Part shown: positions 18,573-63,250 of the stretch, piece after piece
How positions within the stretch are numbered: the stretch's first letter is position 1
Layout of the letters: each line of letters begins with the position of its first letter
Assembly (NCBI GenBank): GCA_951406725.2
Contig: OX597820.1
Location: forward strand, 106,082,001-106,146,000
Direction of reading: 5' to 3'
DNA from: Octopus vulgaris
Lineage: Eukaryota
Length of the DNA stretch: 64,000 bases
Translations under genes and position numbers: made by a program
Notes under the pieces: generated by a model
The model's database searches: none
What the model saw: the letters and a program-made list of their open reading frames with translations, nothing else
Told to the model about the DNA's origin: nothing

Positions 18573-21500
18573 TTTTTTATTTGTCACCAGCGTGGAGGAT
18601 GAGTTGGGGACAATACAAAGGGTTTACATATGATGGAATGATATGAAAAAAAAAGAAGTGTACACAGTGTACATTAAAAGATGTGAAGTATACATAGTAT
18701 ACAGCAATAAGGGAAAAAAATGTAGCGCAGCTGATACCCTCACTGTTTGAGAGATATATTAGAAATGATCTCGTGCTAGATAACAACCATCTTTGGCTAG
18801 TTTGACCCTGTTGTGTTCACTGCTCTGATTGGTTGGCATTGGTGCAGGTTGTCTCTCGACTTATTTTGTGCCAGTGTGTAACCCAACCAATCACAGCCTT
18901 TGGATAAGGTCTCATGACACTGTTTTTCTTATGCCTTGTTTGAGGCTACTTCAGGCTTTATAAGGCGCCAGCATTCACTATTCCTGGTTTTTTGGCTCTA
19001 GACCTTCTAAGGTCTAGTCACTGACCACAGAGCACTCAACCATGTTCCAGCAACACCGGTCTTGGGTTCTAGTCCATTTCAGGACTAACCTCTGACCACA
19101 GAGCTACTCAGCCAATTCCAGTTCGAGCGACAGTCAACATGCAAAGCAGGACCTTTCCACCACCGACACCTTTCAACGATGCCTTTCTCTGCCACCACCA
19201 TCGTCGTCCTTCAACTTTGATGTCGTCTCCATCTCTGTCGACTTGAGCAATATGTACACAGCACTTGCCTAGGTTTAGCTTTCTCGCTGTTGTGATGTTC
19301 ACTGAGCTCCAGTCTACCTGAAAGAACTTCCTGTATCAAGAGACCCAGCACAGCATTGAAGCCTCAACCTCTACACGACATGTGTTCAACCGACATTCTG
19401 CCTTGTGACCCCAACAACAGAACTTACAGAACTGTTACTATTGTGTACCTCACTTACGAACTGGTAAACTAATTCCATCTTAACTCAGTATGCTGAGAGA
19501 CTCATCCTATGCTCTGTATTCTGTTTTATATGCATACATCTTATTTGTACTTCTGTCGCACACACAAACACACAGGCACAAACACTTGTCGCATGCACAC
19601 AGACACTCCACTTTGCTAGCACTCTCACACACACTCTCATTGTACACATTTGTAAATAAAATCTTCTTCTGTCTCAAACAGTAGAACGGTTGTCGTCCTC
19701 ACTTATTCCTTTGGCACATATTCTTTACATCATGTGTTTGACTTCTAATTTTGTTAGGCCGACTGTGCGGTGTTAAAAGGAGACGTTTCCATCACCCATT
19801 CCTTACGTACGGTCGTATTCCCTACAAAAATGTGATGGGGATGGGGCCACCTGATACAGGAAGACTACTAGGGATGATCGAGGAACCCCACCATCACCAT
19901 GAATACCGTGGACAAATACCTTTTCCAACTCCTTTCCTCCAACTCACAGGTCTACACAGAGAGTGATACCATCCACTCTTGCCATTTTCACAACTTTCAC
20001 CCACCTTTTCATAATATAACTCGAGGAAAGCACCTTCCTCTCCACCCTCACTTTCCTTTTCAAGTGAAACTTGAAAAAGTCAATGAGGGCTTTACCAAAG
20101 AGGAATGTCTTTGTCCTCATTCCTTTCAGCCCCCTCCACCAGACAACCTCTTTCACGACAGCAACCAGGCAAAAGAAAACTGCCTTTGCCTGCCTAATTA
20201 AACGAGGGCAGTGGGACAATCATCAGTATGGAGTCGGATGACAGACAGATTAGTCCCACACATGACAGCAGCTGTTCAACATAACTCCACAAGACACTAA
20301 ATTAGTGCATGCAGAACCATTTCGTTGCTCTGCGTACACCTCGGACAATCCCATCTGATAGCACATTCATGCCTGTAGAGTTTATCTTGAACTGGTAGCA
20401 CCTCCACCCACCCACCTCCAGTAGCGCTGCCAAGCCAAAGACATCTGGAAATTATCCATAATAGTCTCCAACTGGAAAGTCCTCCGGAACAGACTAGTTA
20501 GTCCATCTTCGTCAATGCCCAGAGTCTCCCCTAGGATGTTGTTGCACTTTTTAGCCACTAATCCTCAATAAATAGCTAAAGTGGAACATCCACCGATCCT
20601 ATTGCCCAACTGGTAGAGGACAGAGGGTGCCTGACGACATTCTAAGTGCCAGGCACTCAGTCTTGTCTATCCTTCACCCAGGACTGCAGGTCCATTAAAG
20701 AGATGAGTTATGGAAATACATGCCTCACAAACGGAGACCACACATGTTCACCTTCTAGAAATCATTGCAGGTGACACAACCTCAGTGCATGTCCATGCAT
20801 CAAAAGCTATGGCATGCCTAAGCCACCACTCAGAGGGAGCTGACAGCAGATTGACCACCTGACCATTGGAATGCATCCCTTCCACCAGAACATGAACAAA
20901 AGACAACTTGATTAAGCAATAACTGGGGCAAGGCATGACGGTCAGACAATAAATGATGACAGAGGTGTAGGCATTTTCCACCTTTGCCTGACCTTCCAAG
21001 GACAGCTTCCTTTCAGCCCATTTCCGGGTAAGACTGGCCACCCTCTTCATCGCCTCATCCCAGTTCTTATCCACCTGGAGGTTGGGACCAAACCAGATTC
21101 TGAGCAGTTTAACTGGTTTGTCAGTCCAGTGTCTGACAATGCCATCGAACAGCATCGACCTGCCTCTCCAGGTGCCCAGTCACAAGCCCACCAACTTCTC
21201 AGCATTGATTTTAGCCCCTGAAACTGACTCATATTCTTCTAGAATGGAGCCAACTGTCTCCATTTTGGAGGCATCCAACACCATGACGGTGACGTCATCC
21301 ACATATACAGACACTGCTCTTCCAAGTCCCTGTTCGAAAGGGATGCCCGTCAACTTCCTCAGCAGTGGCTCGAGAGCCAGCTCATACAGAAGAGGTGACA
21401 GTGGGCAGCCCTGACAGACTGAGCATGCGATGCTAAACGGTTCTGATAGAGGACCACTTACTTTGACAACCAAGGTGCCACTGTGCATTACAATAATCCA

Positions 21501-22680
21501 GCTCCTGAAAACGGGTCTGAAACTGGCTGCTTTAAGGATGGCTTCCAGGTTGTGATGGTTGACCCTATCGAATGCTTTTGATTGATCCTAATTTATCAGG
21601 ATCAATACTAGACTGCCAACAACAAGCGCTAACCTTTTCACTAACACCTTGGTCAAAATCTTTAAAAATTCACTAGTATGTCCCTACTGTCAACGTTCTT
21701 CTTCAGCAGTGTAACCACACCTGACTAATAGCACTGGGAATTCTCCTACTCTTTTGCCTGTTGTGGTAAACATCTGCCAAAAGGTTGCCAAACAAATCTG
21801 GCATAAATACATAGAATTCATCAGGCAGACCATCTGAACCTGGCGATTTGCAACTTGTGCAATTGCTCATCACCTCTCGTATTTCAGTGGCTGTTATTGG
21901 CTTTTCACAGAACTTCATGTCCACTGCTAAGAGTCACGGCTGGCCATCCAGGTATGAACTAAAGTCTGCTACTGTTGTTGACCTATCACCCCCTCCAAAC
22001 AGTTGTGTGAAGTGCTGCTGAAAAGCTGCACACATCTGCTCAGAACCATGTAGCATACGCCTGTCTCGATCTGTCAAAGACCCAATCGTGGTTTTGTTGC
22101 CATGTTGCGTCGCCACTGTTTAAGCCCATTGGACGGTTTTAGTTCTCTCATGTTTTAGCACACAAGCCTTAACTCTGACAACTCAACCTTCATGTTTCAC
22201 CTCAAAGAAATGGTTAAGAGCCATTCTTGCCACTAACACATCAGTTGCGATACCTTTATTAATTACCTCTTTTAGTTTGCTAACGAGTTCTCCCTCTAAT
22301 CTGTTTTTTTTTTTCTATTGCTAACTCTTTGCTAAACACTATTGATCCTACTCTAATCACCCTCCTCAAGGCTGTCCACCACCGGTTGTTAACAATTGCT
22401 TCCGTCAACTGCTGCTTAATTAGTTTGCTAATCCAGTCCCTGTGGTCTTTGTGCACCAGAAAAGACACATTCAGTTTCCAGTAACCAGGTCTCTGTCTAT
22501 GCATCCTATCTAAATCAACAGTGCAGATCACAAATTCGGGGTCTGTGTAGTCTGTGTAGCCGACCAATTTGAATTGTGGACACCCTGTACTATCCTTATC
22601 CACTGACCTAACAAATACTGTATCTAGATAGGGTCTGGATGACTCATTGTGATTGCTCCATGTCCACACTGGCACATCAG
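18573..22680 (-). mobile_element. L1/Tx1-clade LINE, decayed, with a solo LTR inserted in its 3' UTR
   Basis: WTWSN, GYWKLNVS, KSPGSDGLPDEFY, QGCPLSPLLYELALEPLL and YVDDVT motifs; AATAAAAAAGA 3' end at ~18573 abutting an (AAC/AAT)n tract. Confidence 0.88.
18721..19826 (+). mobile_element. Solo LTR (~1.1 kb)
   Basis: TGTAG...CTACA inverted termini with AAAA on both sides, CCAAT-like boxes, TATA-like TTTATAAG at ~18957 and AATAAA at ~19655. A related partial LTR lies at ~52900-53417 (minus). Confidence 0.75.
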
Positions 22681-27299: not shown

Positions 27300-30200
27300 C
27301 GCTCAAAAAGCAAAAGCAAGGCCATGTAGGGGGACAGGGAGTTATGTACAGGGAGGGTGGTCATACAAAGAGTTCAGGCCATTTCTGGTCAAGAGAGACT
27401 TTGAACCGAGCGGTCGTCGGTATCTTCACTATCTCATCCAGAAGCTTATTCCACGGATCCGCAACCCGGATGGAGAAAGCCCCTCTCCTTCGATTGAGAT
27501 GAAATCATCATAGATAGAGCTTTTCGGAGTGACCCCGCAGCCCACGCTCTGGAGCAGGAGTGAAGAACAGCTCTTTCGAGAGGTTACACTTTCCACCTAT
27601 GATGTCGTGAGCGAGAATGAGATCACCACGATGGCGGCAGCGTTTTTCGAGAGAATAAAGGTCGAGTGTCTTCAGCCTTTCTTCATAAGACAAATGCTTG
27701 AGATCAAGAACCATGCGTGTAGCCAGCTTCTGAACTCTTTCGAGATGATGTATGTCTTTGAGGAGATAAGAAGAGGCTTGAATCCCATACTCCAATATGG
27801 GTCTCACCAGCGGGACATAGATCGGTAGGAATATGGCTGCTGTGACCATTCCGAATGACCGTCGAATCAAAAACAGAACTCCGCGTGCTTTGTTGGCAGC
27901 ATGGATGCATTGGGCCGAAGGCGAAAAGGAAGAATCCACCAAGATACCCAGGTCTTTACTTGGTCAGTCTTCTCCAGCAGCAGACGACCTGGCTCGAAAT
28001 CAAGTTGAGTTGCAGGAGAGGAGCCAACAGGCAGATGACAGCACTTTGACACGTTCAGACACAGGTCCCATTCGTTTGACCATCTCCAAACTTGGTGGAG
28101 GCATCAACGAAGATCATCTATATCACTGCGAGGAGCAACCAGTTTGACATCGTTGGCAAATAGAAGGGTGTGTTGCATGAGGTCATTGGGCAAGTCATTT
28201 ATGAAGACTAAAAACAATAAGGGCCCAAGCACTGAACCTTGAGGCACACCACTACTCGCACTGGAGATGTCGGACAGTGAACCATTAACTTGGACTTGGA
28301 AGGAGTGATTTGAGAGGAAGGCACCAATCCATTGTACAATATCCGGATGGAAATTTGAAGCTTGACAAGTAATAGGCAGTGGTTAACCGAGTCAAAAGCT
28401 TTGGCAAAGTCCAATAAAAAGATGCCAACAGCACCACCATCATCCAGGATACCTCTTCGGTACAAAGCCGTGTTGGGAATCAGAGATAGAGGCTGTGTTT
28501 TGGAGGTGGAGCAACATACTTTTTTTGAGGATGGTTTCGAACATTATTGAAGTAAGGAAAACCGGTCGGTAGTTAAGCAGGTCTTCACAGCTCCCTTTCT
28601 TGAAAATTGGGCAGATTATCGCTGTTCTCCAGTCCACAGGTACAACACCTGTCGCCAATGACACATTGAATAGAAGTGTTAAAGGTTCGCAGATGACTGG
28701 AGCCAATGCTTTGATAACCTGTGGGTGTATGCCATCAGGACCGTGACCCTTGTTGACATCGAGGCCTTGAATAACGCATTCGACTTCGTCACGAGTGATG
28801 ACCAATCTAGGCATTGGAGGTACCGATCTATCAAATGGAGGGGCTTCATGACCATCATCTTGTTTGAAAATTGTCGAAAAAGCCTCGGCAAATAACTGAC
28901 TCTGCTTATAAGGGTCCTCAAATGATATGCCTTTTGAGTCTACCAACGTTGCAATTTGGTTGTTCAAGTGGAAATTCCATTGGCAAAGAAGATTTTTGGA
29001 TTGCGACTGGCGTTTGCCACGATTCTGTATTCATATCTGAAGCGTTCTTCCTTTTCAATTTTCACGGCTCTGTCTCGTTGAGTTTTGTACACCTCAAAAG
29101 CTGCAGTCGAATCTTGATTTTTGAATTCAGCCCAAGCAATATCTCTGAGCCAAAGTTCTTGTTTAACCTTCTTCATCACCCAGGACTTGTGTTTCTTCTT
29201 GGGAAACCCATCGGGGACTGCTTGGTCAGTCAACCAGATTACATATGCTTTGAGGGACGACCATAGTTCGTCAACTGTGGAAATCGTCATCAGGGATCAC
29301 CAGTCCAGAAGCGCAGAAGCCTCGGTTAGAATTTCAAGATTGATTGCAGAGAAGACTCTACGTGGCAGCGAAGTAGTCGTGGGCGTAGAAAAAGTTGTGT
29401 GCATGTCGAACTTCAGGACTGCGTGATCACTCTTGGCAAGAGGGGCGCACACAGATAAGTCTGATACTGATCTTGGATAGCGGGAGAATACCAGATCCAG
29501 CATAGATGGCTGCTGCCCAGACCGATGCCTTGTCGGAGATTCAACATGTTGCGATAGAAAACAATCTTCAGCCACATCAAGAAGCGCCTGGCCGAACCGG
29601 GAAGATGATGTACAAATTGATGCGGGCCAATCAATCGAGGGAGCGTTGAAGTCTCCTAATATCAAACATTCATGAGAAGATGAAACGAATCTTATCGCTT
29701 TGAGTAAATGAGCATCGTCCTGGGGGTCAGCAAGAGGCGGCCTGTAGACAGCTAACACGGGCAAACAAAACCCAGATAGGCTCAGCTTGCAATAGACGGC
29801 ATCGAATTTTGTTGTAGGTTGAGCATTAGTAGGTAGAATACCGCTGGATGGTTTGAGATCAGATTTAACATACACAGCAACACCTCCACCTCGCCTTTTT
29901 TCTCTGTCACATCTGAAGAGGGCGTAGCCCTGTAGGTGGATTTCCGAGTCCTTTACTGCTGGAGTCAGCCAAGTTTCGGTGATAGATATCACATCTGGGG
30001 AATCACACATGGCCAGTGTAAATAATTCGCTGAACTTTAGAAATAAGGAGCACGAGTTGGTATAGACGATGCTGAGCTGTGAAGTTTGAGGGGCAGGAAT
30101 TAGGGAACAAGCAGAATAAGGGGTATCAGAGATAGCATCGTATCTACTTTACTTTGATTTGCCCTCGATTCACTTTCCCTGTCAGCACTACAGCATGTGA

Positions 30201-36208: not shown

Positions 36209-38915
36209 TCGTTTAACGTCCGCTTTCCATGCTAGCATGGGTTGGACAATTTTGACTGTGGGCTGGCAAACCAGATGGCTACACCAGGCTCCAATCTTGA
36301 TTTGGCAGAGTTTCTACAGCTAGATGCCCTTCCTAATGTCAACCACTCCAAGAGTGTAGTGGGTGCTTTTTATGTGCCGCCGGCACGGGCCAGTCAGGCG
36401 GTACTGGCAACGACCTCGCTCGAATCTTTTACACATGCCACTGGCACAGGTGCCAGGAAGGTGACATTGGTAACGATCACGCTCGAATGGTGCCCTTTTA
36501 CGTGCCACTGGCACGGAAGCCAGTTGGTTGCTCTGGCAACAATCACACTCAGATGGTGCTCTTGGCACCCTACTAGCGTGGGCACAAGTGCCAGTAAGGT
36601 GACTCTGGTAACAATGATGCTCGAATGGTGCCTTTGAAGTGCCACTGGCATGGAAGCCAGTTAGCTGCTCTGTCAATGATCACACTCGTATGGTGCTCTT
36701 TGCACCCTGCTAGCGCGGACGCCAGTCATCGAATTTGATTTTGGTTTTGATTTTGATTGATTTCACTTGGCTCAACAGGTCTTCGCAAGCAGAGTTTTAG
36801 TGTCCAAAGCAAGAAAAGGTACGCATAAGTGGGCTGGTTACGCCCCTGGTATAGGCCATGAGATTATGGTTTCATTTGACTTGCCGGGTCTTCTCACACA
36901 CGGCATATTTCCAAAGGTCTCGGTGACTAGTCATTTCCTTGGTGAGGCCCAAAGTTCAAAGGTCGTGCTTCACCACTTCATCCCAGGTCTTCCAGGGTCT
37001 ACCTCTTCCACAGGTTCCCTCAACTGCTAGGGTGTGGCACTTTTTCATACAACTGTCCTCATCCATTCTTGCCACATGACCATAAAAGTGCAGTCATCTC
37101 TCTTGCACACCACATGTGATGCTTCTTAGGTCCAACTTTTCTCTCAAGGTACTTACATTCTGTCGAGTATGAACACTGACATTACACATCCATCGGATCA
37201 TACTGGCTTCATTCCTTGTGAAATTATGCATGTCCTCAACAGTCACGGCCCATGTTTCACTGCCATGTAGCATGGCTGTTCGTACACATGTGTCATACAG
37301 TCTACCTTTTACTCTGAGCAAGAGGCCCTTTGTCACCAGCAGAGGTAAGAGCTCTCTGAACTTTGCCCAGGCTATTCTTATTCTAGCAGCTACACTTTCA
37401 GCGCACCTTCCCCTGCTACTGACCTGGTCACCTAGGTAATGGAAGCTATCAACTTCTTCTAGTGTTTCTCCCTGAAATGTGGCAGAAGTTGTTCTCTGCA
37501 CATTTTCAGTGTTTATTGCTCCCGAGCATCTGCCACATACAAAAACTATCTTCCCAGTTAGCCTTCCTTTGATATTACTGCACCTCTTATGTATCCATAG
37601 CTTACACTGGGTACATCTTATAGAGTTTCTACCTATGCCTCTACTACAGATTGAGCAGGGCCATCTACCTGAAGGGGTTTGTGGTTTGCCTGCCTTCCTA
37701 CATATTACGATTTTGATTTTAGCTAGGTTGATTCTGAGGTCCTTCGATTCTAATCCTTGTTTCCACACTTGAAACTTCGCCTCTAGTTCTGATAGTGACT
37801 CAGAAATTAGAGCAAGGTCGTCAGCATAGAGGAACTCCCAGGGGCATCCTGTCTTGAATTCTTTCATTATTGCCTGGAGGACTATGATAAATAGGAAGGC
37901 ACTGAGGACTGAACCTTGGTGGACCCCTACCTCTACTCCGAATTCTTCAGATGCCAACCCTCACCTTACTGACAGTATCCCTGAACATGGCTTGTACAGC
38001 TCTCACCAACCACTCATCTATCCCAAGTTTCCACATTGACCACTAGGTAAGGAATCAGGGGACCCTGTCAAAGGCTTTCTCCATGTCAACAAAAGCCAGG
38101 TACAGGGGCTTATCCTTGGCTAGGTATTTCTCCTGCAACTGTCTTACCAGAAATATAGCATCAGTGGTGCTTTTCCCTGACACCAAACCAAACTGCATCT
38201 CATCCAAGCTGACTCTCTCCCTAATCAGTTGGGCTATGACCCTCTCCATAACCTTCATTACCTGATCCAACAGCTTGATACCTCTGTAATTATTTGTATC
38301 TAAAACGTCACCTTTACCTTTGTAGCAGTTGACTATTATGCTGCTACACCAGTCATTGGGTATGACTCCTTCATGTATCACCTGGTTAACTATACAGGTG
38401 ACTAGGCTATAACCAACACTGCCAGATATTTTGAGCATCTCTGCAGTAATTCCTGATGGGCCTGAGGCTTTCCCTGTCTTCATGCTTCTAATTGCCTTTA
38501 CTACCAAGGAACTGTCAACTCCGATAGCTGGTCCCTCTGTTGGGTCGACATTTTGCAGACTCTCTTTCTCCCATTCATTTTCTTTATTGAGTAACCTTTC
38601 ATAGTGGTGTCTCGAAACCTCTCTCTTTGCAGCCTTGTTTAGTGCAAGTGAACCATCATCCATGTGGACACATTTCTCTCCAACCACATCATGATTCTCT
38701 CTCACGCACTGTCTTGCAACACAAAATACTTCAAGTCTTTCGTCCTCACGGCGCAGAACATTGGCAAATTTTTTCTTATCTGCTTTCCCTTGGGCTAAAT
38801 AAACCTGCCTCCTAGCTTCCCTTCTGGCAGTCTGAACAATTCCCTGCTACCACCGTTCTTCCAGTCCTTCCAAGCCTTTTGTCTAATAGCCCTGTCAACA
38901 ACATTGTTCCACCAC
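36209..38915 (-). mobile_element. RTE-clade LINE, 5'-truncated (same family as 5447-7775)
   Basis: ORFs of 216 and 287 aa with AFVDMEKAFDRVP, GVHQGSVLS and LYADDL, plus an inserted PHD-like CSIC...CTQCKLWIHKRC...FVCGRC; (GAT)n tail. Confidence 0.95.
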
Positions 38916-39867: not shown

Positions 39868-40329
39868 AATGTAAAGTATAGAAGCTATCTTATCATGGCT
39901 AACCACATTGGGGAGGGGGTATTACTGTAGCTTTATAGCCCCAAGAGATCTTCGTCTCTAGCTGGCTTTAGACACAATATCTGTGTCCTTGGAGTATTTG
40001 CAAAGGGAGGCCATCCCTTCCTCGCAAGCCTGAGTGATACGCTCGAACTAGATTCAGGATTTTTGTCCCTCGTCAATGGGCGGTAACCACCAGGTAGCGA
40101 TGAAAGAGAAGCGATAACTCAGGCTTGCGAGGAAGGGATGGCCTCCCTTTGCAAATACTCCAAGGACACAGATATTGTGTCTAAAGCCAGCTAGAGACGA
40201 AGATCTCTTGGGGCTATAAAGCTACAGTAACACCCCCTCCCCAATGTGGTTAGCCATGATAAGATGGCTTCTATACTTTACATTATCGAGCGATTACTGT
40301 TTCAATCTCATTCTGAGATTTAATTATGC
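39868..40329. mobile_element. Foldback Penelope/retrozyme-like element with 168-bp arms, between (TA)n tracts
   Basis: 39868-40035 versus 40117-40284, with two mismatches by eye. Homologous to 51373-51742. Decayed hammerhead in the spacer. Confidence 0.85.
40040..40082 (-). ncRNA. Decayed minimal hammerhead ribozyme
   Basis: Minus strand: CGCCCA-UUGACGA-[GGGA caaaaa UCCU]-GAAU-CUAG-UU-CGAGCG, with a palindromic stem III region. Confidence 0.5.
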
Positions 40330-51372: not shown

Positions 51373-51741
51373 CAATAATAAATCTCTGGACGAGGTATAA
51401 ACAGTAACTGCATGACAATGTGAAGTATATTTGCCATCTCAATATGGCTAACCACTAAGGGTAGATGTTACTGTAGCTTGTAGCCCCAGGAGAATATCTT
51501 CTCCAGCTGGCTATTGACACTTTCTGTGCCCTGTCGATATTTGCAAAGGGAAGCCATCCTTCCCATCATCGACCTAACGTGATATGCACGGACCCGGGTG
51601 TTTGGGTATTTACCCATCATCATCACATGGCAATCACTGGTCTTCGATGAGAAGGGGTCCCAATGCAAATACATATATCCTTTTTCCAGTGACTTTTCGT
51701 CACTGATCTTGAAAAAGTGTAAACAAGCAATAATAAATCTC

Positions 51742-51742
<1 letters not shown>
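51373..51742 (-). mobile_element. 355-nt terminally redundant non-coding element with a decayed hammerhead (51587-51629), between (AAT)n and (TTA)n
   Basis: CAATAATAAATCTCT at 51373-51387 and 51728-51742. Minus strand reads CAUG-ugaUGAUGA-U-[GGGU aaau ACCC]-AAAC-ACCCGGGU-C-CGUG. Homologous to 39868-40329. Confidence 0.65.
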
Positions 51743-51810
<68 letters not shown>

Positions 51811-51816
<6 letters not shown>

Positions 51817-51953
51817 TCACTACCTCGAATCTAATTCGGAATCTTGGGGTTTGTAGCCCACGCTCTTAACCACTACACCAACAGGCATATGGCATAGTGG
51901 TTAAGAGTGCGGGCTACTAACTTCAAGATTCCGAGTTCGATTCCAGGCAGTGA

Positions 51954-51984
<31 letters not shown>

Positions 51985-52090
51985 TTCCCCAAGGCACCTG
52001 ATGAAGGCTGGAGGGTATATCAGCCGAAATGTTGTGTTAACAACAAACGAGAGGAGGACAAATATCCGTCAAATGTAAATAATGTAAATC
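51811..52090 (+). mobile_element. tRNA-headed hammerhead SINE with an inverted copy of its head at the 5' side
   Basis: Head TGGCATAGTGGTTAAGAG...GAGTTCGATTCC (51889-51957) is mirrored at 51811-51880; then (AAT)n, the hammerhead, and a tail shared with 61716-62157. Confidence 0.8.
51993..52038 (+). ncRNA. Minimal type I hammerhead ribozyme
   Basis: GGCAC-CUGAUGA-A-[GGCUG gaggguauau CAGCC]-GAAA-UG-UU-GUGUU. Combined with the 62-kb copy, the inferred consensus is GAAACGUU, a palindromic AACGUU stem III. Confidence 0.75.

Positions 52091-61539: not shown

Positions 61540-63250
<1,711 letters not shown>

What the first reader, a model, noticed from the sequence alone, without database searches (positions are those of the whole stretch)
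51400..51586. Unassigned structured RNA domain with covariation, 3' of the hammerhead
Comparing the minus strand here with 40117-40300 (plus): outer stem GUCGAU/AUCGAC versus CUUG(C)GAG/CUCCAAG encloses a GGGA../..UCCC hairpin and an invariant UUUGCAAAUA. Hairpins GGCAC/GUGUC versus GACAC/GUGUC, GAGA/UCUC and GCCAU/AUGGC keep their pairing with different loops. AGCCAGCU, GGGGCUA, AAGCUACAGUAACA and GUGGUUAGCC are invariant. I could not match it to HDV, twister, pistol or hatchet. It may be an RT-binding domain or an undescribed RNA motif.
Basis: partly seen in the sequence, partly recalled or inferred. Interest (0 to 1): 0.7.

Follow-up and report, generated by a model that had tools for sequence, protein, structure and literature searches.

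The report
Retrozyme's folded reverse-transcription start domain
This stretch is the folded 3' half of a 355-base, protein-less repeat present in thousands of copies; it is likely not a new ribozyme but the part that a Penelope-type enzyme grips and starts copying from, and the repeat likely also carries a U2-type promoter.

Summary
The similarity is real, but 51400-51586 is not a free-standing motif. It is +63..+249 of a 355-nt unit (window 51373-51742, minus) with a type I hammerhead: a non-LTR retrozyme with at least 3,840 copies and 13 sampled subfamilies, 51-98% identical. The 'invariant' motifs vary and are mostly helix strands. Copies end at two sites about 45 nt apart, at the 3' side of this domain, in AT-rich DNA, often with inverted pieces: the Penelope signature, which in vitro marks two RT start sites. 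So the domain is likely the RT recognition and start region. The unit also holds the host U1/U2/U5 promoter core 59 nt before a U2-like start, where two LINE families insert, one also at U2 +1. The partner element, expression and cleavage are not shown. The window copy has a broken hammerhead core.

The parts
51373..51742 (-). One whole retrozyme copy, subfamily A: 355-nt unit plus a 15-nt terminal repeat (51728-51742 = 51373-51387), between (TAA)n/(TTA)n tracts
   Evidence: Sequence; profile hit E 8e-94; coordinates; circular fold -111.6 kcal/mol, z -4.5 against 25 shuffles
51687..51707 (-). ATCAGTG (51701-51707), matching the host U1/U2/U5 promoter core (likely PSE); also the 5' strand of a small conserved hairpin
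   Evidence: ATCAGT at -57..-61 in 12 of 12 U1, 11 of 12 U2, 9 of 10 U5 loci read; best-scoring site in 5 of 5 monomers tested; hairpin 97.7% paired
51658..51671 (-).
   Evidence: 97.2% paired, one A-U to G-C change in subfamily G2; pair probability 1.0 in the window copy
51639..51648 (-). Predicted transcription start (51648, ATCG, 59 nt from the promoter core, as in U2); also the 5' strand of the helix I extension and the target of two LINE families in other copies
   Evidence: pairing
51579..51637 (-). Type I hammerhead with short palindromic helix III; predicted cut after 51591. Core altered in this copy (51617-51623 and 51599-51602), so likely inactive here
   Evidence: Core status of 44 copies; Rfam Hammerhead_HH9 E 0.0021, below gathering score, in a subfamily B copy; no Rfam hit in the window copy
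51538..51574 (-).
   Evidence: 7 both-side changes against 2.5 null, 7 of 1,500; 5 against 1.8-2.0 without subfamily G, 15-32 of 1,500
51516..51530 (-). Hairpin P3 (GGCAC/GUGUC)
   Evidence: 96.4% paired; one pair occurs as G-U, A-U and G-C
51482..51512 (-). Hairpin P4 (AGCC/GGCU base, 3-4 nt bulge, GGAGA/UCUCC top)
   Evidence: 96-98% paired, 4 of 9 pairs with both-side change, 1 of 1,500 null
51401..51474 (-).
   Evidence: 90.6% paired, 5 of 8 pairs with both-side change in real copies; 4 of 1,500 null
51433..51448 (-). Hairpin P7 (GCCAU/AUGGC)
   Evidence: 91.3% paired, 3 of 6 pairs with both-side change; 10 of 1,500 null
51414..51428 (-). First preferred 3' end of copies (AC-rich linker); likely RT start site 1
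   Evidence: 66 of 223 anchored copies stop 0-6 nt past it
51373..51400 (-). End of the optional 'tail': hairpin P9 (51384-51395) and second preferred 3' end; likely RT start site 2
   Evidence: 88 of 223 copies stop 37-56 nt past site 1, only 7 stop between
40110..40329 (+). Subfamily B copy, 5'-truncated, ending at site 2 in (TA)n
   Evidence: family members 98-99% identical
39868..40109 (-). Inverted piece of the same subfamily B insertion; holds the hammerhead region and ends at site 1 (no tail)

Best explanation
The stretch is the 3' half of the unit of a non-coding, hammerhead-bearing repeat (a non-LTR retrozyme) whose copies end at two fixed sites beside it; its conserved fold is likely the handle that a Penelope-like reverse transcriptase binds and starts from. 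Cycle. (1) Inferred: in a tandem copy RNA polymerase II starts at a U2-type promoter 59 nt behind ATCAGTG and reads through the unit into the next one. (2) Inferred from the known class: two hammerheads cut out a ~355-nt monomer that is ligated to a circle; this puts the upstream promoter inside the RNA, so it is copied along. (3) Shown by covariation and folding: the first third of the finding pairs back to extend hammerhead helix I into a rod; the rest forms hairpins P3 and P4 and a branch closed by P5 that holds P7, followed by P9. (4) Inferred: a GIY-YIG/RT protein supplied in trans nicks AT-rich DNA and primes at two internal sites, one in the AC-rich linker after P7 and one after P9, which gives the optional 40-50-nt tail and the inverted pieces. 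The window copy is a dead-end insertion with a broken ribozyme core.
For: Repeat: 3,840 exact hits of one 22-nt pattern, control 0; unit 340-358 nt; 13 subfamilies. Structure: 90.2% of 3,045 cells paired, 32 of 75 pairs with both-side change, 0 of 500 shuffles; tree-aware null for P3/P4/P5/P7/P9 11 against 2.3, 0 of 1,500, and 4 against 0.8-1.0, 1-8 of 1,500, without the deep subfamily G. Unguided RNAalifold recovers the long-range helix, P3, P4 and P7. Ends: 154 of the 175 copies that stop within 85 nt do so in two clusters; in pattern-picked loci 92 of 104 pieces end at +221-240 or +261-300, while no 5' end position holds more than 3. Next 10 nt 88% AT; microsatellite follows in 30 of 66 and 50 of 88 against 3.4% background. 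Inverted pieces in 9 of 29, 18 of 29 and 8 of 25 loci. These are the Penelope hallmarks (10.1101/2021.04.23.441226), and for the anole element PAc the tail lies between two RT starts in an AC-rich stem-loop downstream of the hammerhead (PMC11167929). Promoter; 28 of 28 5' ends of one LINE follow the unit's +1..+14; a sister LINE abuts U2 +1 in 5 and the unit's ATCG in 6 of 12 hits; 3 of 3 U2-side 5' junctions carry an extra 14-mer like the unit's +1..+14.
Against: No autonomous partner found: none of 30 GIY-YIG loci carries the unit behind its ORF (30 of 148 matches, of 6,136 candidates), and 85 of 98 flanking ORFs gave no GIY-YIG hit. No sequence likeness to a Penelope pLTR was shown. The structure was chosen by looking at the same sequences, which inflates the tests; many both-side changes lie on one long branch (G), and MAFFT misregisters G in the rod. 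Unguided RNAalifold did not return P5, P9 or the helix I extension. Two fixed ends show where copying starts, not that the hairpins bind RT. ATCAGTG is also a hairpin strand, reads ACCAGTG in many G copies, and the extra 14-mer in U2 copies may stem from one event. No expression, circle or cleavage was shown.
Confidence: 0.68

Rival explanations
1. The fold is only generic self-pairing that keeps a circular RNA compact and nuclease-resistant; RT recognises just the short sequence around the two start sites, and the hairpins bind nothing specific.
For: Circular monomers fold far better than shuffles as a whole (z -1.0 to -6.0 in 21 monomers), as reported for other retrozyme circles (PMC7229834). 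Loop sequences and the P4 bulge drift between subfamilies.
Against: Helix order and spacing are kept at about 55% identity, and short stretches such as GGGCUA (41 of 44) and UUUGCAAAUA (38 of 44) keep their letters as well as their pairing, which generic pairing would not need.
Confidence: 0.17
2. The conserved words in the stretch are DNA promoter elements (a distal enhancer with an octamer-like site) for the next unit's snRNA-type promoter, as recalled for newt satellite 2.
For: In tandem the UUUGCAAAUA word sits about 255 nt before the next predicted start, near the distal element of vertebrate snRNA genes (220 bp; PMC4494074); it is one base from the octamer (recalled), and host U1 and some U6 promoters hold ATGCAAAT.
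Against: In subfamily G2 the word and its upstream partner change together (A-U to G-C), which breaks the octamer likeness and keeps the helix; the other words are helix strands that covary. No shared distal motif was seen by eye among U1, U2 and U5 upstream regions.
Confidence: 0.07
3. The unit is the pseudo-LTR of an autonomous Penelope-like element and the copies are 5'-truncated insertions of it rather than a separate circular RNA.
For: Same insertion signature; retrozymes and pLTRs are related in Xenopus (10.64898/2026.07.22.740005).
Against: Copies that extend upstream run into the previous unit (48 of 223 run on; pieces up to 581 nt); no shared coding sequence was seen upstream.
Confidence: 0.05
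4. The domain is an undescribed second self-cleaving ribozyme.
For: Covarying multi-helix fold with no Rfam match.
Against: No pile-up of 5' ends inside it; almost no conserved unpaired bases for a catalytic core across 44 copies; the unit already has a hammerhead.
Confidence: 0.03

Closest known systems
Metazoan non-LTR retrozymes (Cervera and de la Pena 2020, PMC7229834; mussel units 350-390 bp, axolotl 330/350 bp)
   Same: Non-coding unit of about 355 nt, GC 42-45%, one type I hammerhead, monomers to short multimers, thousands of copies, stable predicted circle with the hammerhead at a rod tip.
   Different: In the passages read the paper gives no covariation-based fold of the non-hammerhead part, no RT start sites and no promoter. 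No sequence comparison with mussel or axolotl units was possible here; supplements not seen.
Penelope-like element PAc of the anole (Frangieh et al. 2024, PMC11167929) and PLE pseudo-LTRs (Craig et al. 2021)
   Same: Two internal 3' ends bounding an optional tail, downstream of a hammerhead; AC-rich first site; AT-rich targets; inverted 5'-truncated pieces.
   Different: PAc encodes its own RT and endonuclease and its RT-binding RNA lies in the ORF start; here there is no ORF, the tail is 40-50 nt, and the partner is unidentified.
Newt satellite 2 (Coats et al. 1994, seen only as cited in PMC2220036)
   Same: Hammerhead tandem repeat said to be transcribed by polymerase II from an snRNA-type promoter inside the repeat.
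   Different: Different animal group and sequence; there the promoter was tested, here it is inferred from host U1/U2/U5 promoters and LINE junctions.
Target-specific Tx1-clade LINEs: Keno (U2), Tx1 in Tx1D, Tx1-Mar (PMC4494074)
   Same: Two-ORF APE/RT LINEs that insert at one site in a multicopy RNA gene or in another transposon.
   Different: Here one young family uses both U2 +1 and the retrozyme's predicted +1 with a 14-bp duplication. Clade membership was not tested with a tree.

Membership tests
Non-LTR retrozyme | Repeat unit of about 170-400 nt, GC below 50%, non-coding | tested here: met
   340-358 nt, GC 0.42-0.45; the ORF spanning the unit has no Pfam hit
Non-LTR retrozyme | One type I hammerhead per unit | tested here: met
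   Core YUGANGA..GAAA in 27 of 44 copies, most others natural-looking variants; helices I and II covary; Rfam HH9 E 0.0021 in one of 5 loci. The window copy itself fails (two core changes).
Non-LTR retrozyme | Tandem copies with at least two hammerheads | tested here: met
   Hits spaced 341-358 nt; extra direct pieces in 5 of 29, 12 of 29 and 10 of 25 loci. Long arrays were not seen in the loci read.
Non-LTR retrozyme | Self-cleavage of the transcript | not testable with these tools
   Needs an in vitro assay
Non-LTR retrozyme | Expressed as linear and circular monomer RNA | tested here: inconclusive
   No holder on record as RNA; only contigs could be laid
Penelope-mobilised element | Optional tail of about 30-40 bp between two 3' ends | tested here: met
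   Two end clusters about 45 nt apart in subfamilies A-E, about 55 nt in G
Penelope-mobilised element | Inverted 5'-truncated piece, partial tandems, AT-rich or microsatellite target | tested here: met
   window locus 39868-40329
Penelope-mobilised element | Autonomous RT + GIY-YIG partner sharing the 3' region | tested here: inconclusive
   Such elements are abundant, some with 781-aa open frames, but none of 30 loci read shares the unit
snRNA-type (PSE) promoter | Host PSE core about 60 bp upstream of the start | tested here: met
   A[TC]CAGTG in 42 of 44 copies (copies were chosen for having this region)
snRNA-type (PSE) promoter | Capped transcript starting at the predicted base; SNAPc dependence | not testable with these tools
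   Only indirect: LINE junctions
Known small ribozymes other than hammerhead (HDV, twister, twister-sister, pistol, hatchet, hairpin) | Match to the family's covariance model | tested here: not met
   No such hit at E up to 1 in the window, 5 in five loci, 10 in the unit
SECIS of Naiad elements | AUGA/GA core with apical AA, 3' of a UGA-recoding ORF | tested here: not met
   No SECIS hit; the AUGA is not conserved; no ORF

The most novel reading that the evidence does not exclude
This retrozyme is a complete minimal parasite with three separable modules on one 355-nt circle: a captured U2-type promoter and start that becomes internal only through tandem or circular permutation, a hammerhead at a rod tip, and a covariation-defined RNA domain that is the binding and double start signal for Penelope-type reverse transcriptase; a LINE lineage in turn switches between U2 +1 and this promoter's +1. 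The domain would be the first defined cis signal for retrozyme mobilisation.
Probability: 0.4. Interest if true: 0.72.

Novelty: new member of a known kind. Interest (0 to 1): 0.5.

Why it matters
Who transcribes animal retrozymes and who copies them back is open: the papers read propose Penelope-like elements but name no RNA signal and no promoter. A series of 13 subfamilies gives a fold with compensatory changes, two start sites mapped onto it and a predicted transcription start, so the RT-recognition step becomes a defined mutagenesis experiment. If the domain suffices for priming it is a short non-coding handle for a Penelope RT. The promoter and LINE parts were also reported by other agents of this scan for other copies, so they are not unique to this window.

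Tried and rejected
Rfam: only microsatellite-driven miRNA noise in the window, nothing on the domain. Octamer reading of UUUGCAAAUA: weakened by the paired change in G2. U6-type (PSE + TATA) promoter: the 6 of 12 U6 loci with promoter-like flanks have another element and no ATCAGTG at -59, so a U1/U2/U5 type fits better. The sequence after the promoter in three loci was first taken for the autonomous partner; it is an inserted APE/RT LINE with a target duplication. Partner search: 30 GIY-YIG loci and 85 of 98 flanking ORFs, none linked; one diverged unit lies on the opposite strand about 1.2 kb from one ORF. Expression: no RNA holder listed; runs guessed to be RNA hold contigs over the unit, with a unit-to-neighbouring-repeat depth ratio like that of DNA runs (about 0.02-0.05 in both); contigs show no ends or strand, so this says nothing either way. 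Metagenome pattern scan: 9 hits, only short profile matches around the pattern, taken as chance; viral contigs 0. The PSE null (27 of 2,109 windows reach the score, 9 also with YATC at the right distance) was drawn partly from loci that hold the unit, so it is an upper bound. The primary paper on the newt promoter and one on the newt riboprotein complex were not held. Literature searches for a description of this domain, of an snRNA promoter in invertebrate retrozymes or of a LINE targeting a retrozyme listed none; Repbase and subscription journals were not searchable.

Full report
Observation. The minus strand of 51400-51586 matches 40131-40327 at 77% over 198 nt and an inverted piece at 39868-40021. 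The window lies in a 2.8-billion-base animal genome; that it is octopus-like is my recall and the wording of earlier AI notes, not a test. The stretch is a dispersed repeat: 2,981 and 1,885 candidates for the two window versions and 3,840 exact matches of a shared 22-nt pattern against 0 for the reversed control.

The unit. Flanks show a unit of 340-358 nt that runs head to tail. Counting from an ATCG as +1: ATCAGTG at -59, a type I hammerhead with predicted cut at about +56, the finding at +63..+249, a tail to about +272. The window copy is one unit of 355 nt plus a 15-nt terminal repeat at 51373-51742, with two changes in the hammerhead core. A second pattern (1,899 hits, control 75) brought further subfamilies and a deep one, G (2,226 candidates). 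From 101 copies spanning promoter core to domain I grouped 13 subfamilies, 51-98% identical (99 of the 101 were placed in a group). The hammerhead core is YUGANGA..GAAA in 27 of 44 aligned copies; several others have U at position 3 with A at position 8, which would keep the 3-8 pair (the pair is recalled; PMC11167929 describes its C3G/G8C rescue), and helix III is short and palindromic, as in amphibian hammerheads that cut as dimers (PMC7229834).

Structure. On 44 real copies my 75-pair model has 90.2% of cells paired and 32 pairs with a change on both sides (0 of 500 shuffles; slid controls 33-45% paired). Without G the domain gives 4 against 0.8-1.0 (1-8 of 1,500) and the rod 5 against 1.8-2.0 (15-32 of 1,500). 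The model was drawn from these same sequences, so the numbers lean in its favour; unguided RNAalifold found the long-range helix, P3, P4 and P7 but not P5, P9 or the helix I extension. Folded as circles, 21 monomers give z from -1.0 to -6.0 against 25 shuffles each, and 15 of the 16 with both arms intact form the long-range helix with probability at least 0.99. So the first third of the finding is the return strand of an extended hammerhead helix I, UUUGCAAAUA pairs with an upstream inverted copy, and ACAGUAAC pairs with the tail. The GGGA/UCCC hairpin may form only in the cut linear RNA.

Ends. Of 223 anchored copies, 66 stop 0-6 nt past an AC-rich linker after P7, 88 stop 37-56 nt past it (after P9), 7 stop between, 14 at 57-85 nt and 48 run on (part of this set was picked by full-length similarity). 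In loci picked by pattern alone 92 of 104 pieces end in the two clusters, while 5' ends are scattered, with at most 3 at any base and no pile at the hammerhead cut or inside the domain. The DNA that follows is 88% AT, often microsatellite. Inverted pieces occur in 35 of 83 loci; the window's second locus has an inverted piece ending at site 1 and a sense piece ending at site 2. Partial tandems, inverted truncated pieces and an optional 30-40-bp tail are the marks of Penelope-like elements (10.1101/2021.04.23.441226, passages). For the anole element PAc the tail was shown to be the sequence between two internal RT start sites in an AC-rich stem-loop 3' of the hammerhead, with the minimal RNA spanning that region (PMC11167929, main text parts 1-2 of 4). 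This is the basis for reading the domain as the RT handle; it is analogy plus end mapping, not a binding test. Penelope-like elements abound in the genome but none of 30 loci read shares the unit.

Promoter. Host U1, U2 and U5 genes carry ATCAGT at -57..-61 (12 of 12, 11 of 12, 9 of 10 loci read, being the best 12 of 42, 12 of 48 and 10 of 26 matches). The unit has the same word 58-59 nt before an ATC in 4 of 5 monomers scored, the fifth having a changed start; subfamily B begins with the same six letters as U2. An APE/RT LINE of 4.8-5.3 kb has all 28 of its detected 5' ends right after +14 of the unit; 26 of 28 lie 71-76 nt behind ATCAGT, the other two behind another LINE's 3' end; 12 of 12 copies fetched in full repeat the 14-mer at their 3' end with 0-2 mismatches. 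A sister family (83% identical over 3.6 kb) gave 12 hits (control 2): 5 abut +1 of U2, 6 abut the unit's ATCG, 1 is unrelated. At 3 of 3 U2-side 5' junctions the duplicated U2 14-mer is followed by an extra 14-mer one letter from subfamily B's +1..+14, as expected if a LINE RNA once began at that base; the three may descend from one event. A promoter upstream of the start can only be copied if the template is a multimer or a circle, which fits the retrozyme cycle. Newt satellite 2 is cited as having an snRNA promoter (PMC2220036, passages); the primary paper was not held.

Comparison and verdict. The element meets every testable feature of the non-LTR retrozymes (PMC7229834: passages, discussion and section 14; supplements not seen), which a 2026 preprint links to Penelope pLTRs (10.64898/2026.07.22.740005, parts 1-3 of 5; supplements closed). 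Those unseen supplements may hold folds or cephalopod examples that bear on novelty. An octopus repeat annotation does not mention ribozymes in its main text (PMC13282606, term search). After my own tests I found that other agents of this scan had reported the promoter and LINE targeting for other copies; these are unchecked notes and add no independent support. What this window adds is the corrected, covariation-tested fold of the 3' half and the placing of the two ends on it. Odds: retrozyme membership about 0.9, Penelope-type mobilisation about 0.85, domain as specific RT handle about 0.68, functional snRNA-type promoter about 0.7, second ribozyme about 0.03. Interest 0.5.

Noticed in passing
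G000 loci L252-L291 (e.g. L289:496-5815 +): LINE family with CCHC ORF1 and APE/RT/zf-RVT ORF2 inserting only after +14 of the retrozyme unit, 14-bp target duplication, 28 of 28 5' ends.
   Followed up: yes
L292-L311: Sister LINE family, copies 97-99.7% identical, at +1 of U2 genes and at the unit's ATCG; U2 copies carry an extra retrozyme-like 14-mer at the 5' end; tandem stacks of both families occur.
   Followed up: yes
window 51998-52029 (+), related piece near 62018-62122: A different, minimal hammerhead (CUGAUGA, short stem II, GAAA) in another repeat, on the opposite strand 250 nt from the unit.
   Followed up: no
window 51786-51970: Inverted pair of a short repeat with (AAT)n tails, also at 61714-61821; looks tRNA-derived by recall, not tested.
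   Followed up: no
window 21180-21587, 29297-30148, 37094-38846 (all minus): Broken LINE fragments: RT, APE endonuclease, and RT followed by a PHD-like finger.
   Followed up: no
L086, L088, L093-L096: U6 loci with promoter-like flanks use a different upstream element (octamer-like word near -78 and a TATA near -30) from the ATCAGTG of U1/U2/U5.
   Followed up: partly
alignment A2, columns 96-102: Whole subfamilies carry variant hammerhead cores: U3 with G8, U3 with A8, and C at position 4.
   Followed up: partly
window 51687-51705 and subfamily A copies: The loop of the promoter hairpin occurs in both orientations among subfamily A copies, as after an inversion by template switching.
   Followed up: no
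L021:2433-2678, L119:2481-2762, L134:1897-2143, L188:1837-2049, L330:13-264, L053:142-333: Older, more diverged relatives of the unit found by chance in flanks; the superfamily is deeper than the 13 subfamilies used.
   Followed up: no
L209: A 1.38-kb four-copy tandem that contains a retrozyme piece together with unrelated sequence: a secondary amplification.
   Followed up: no
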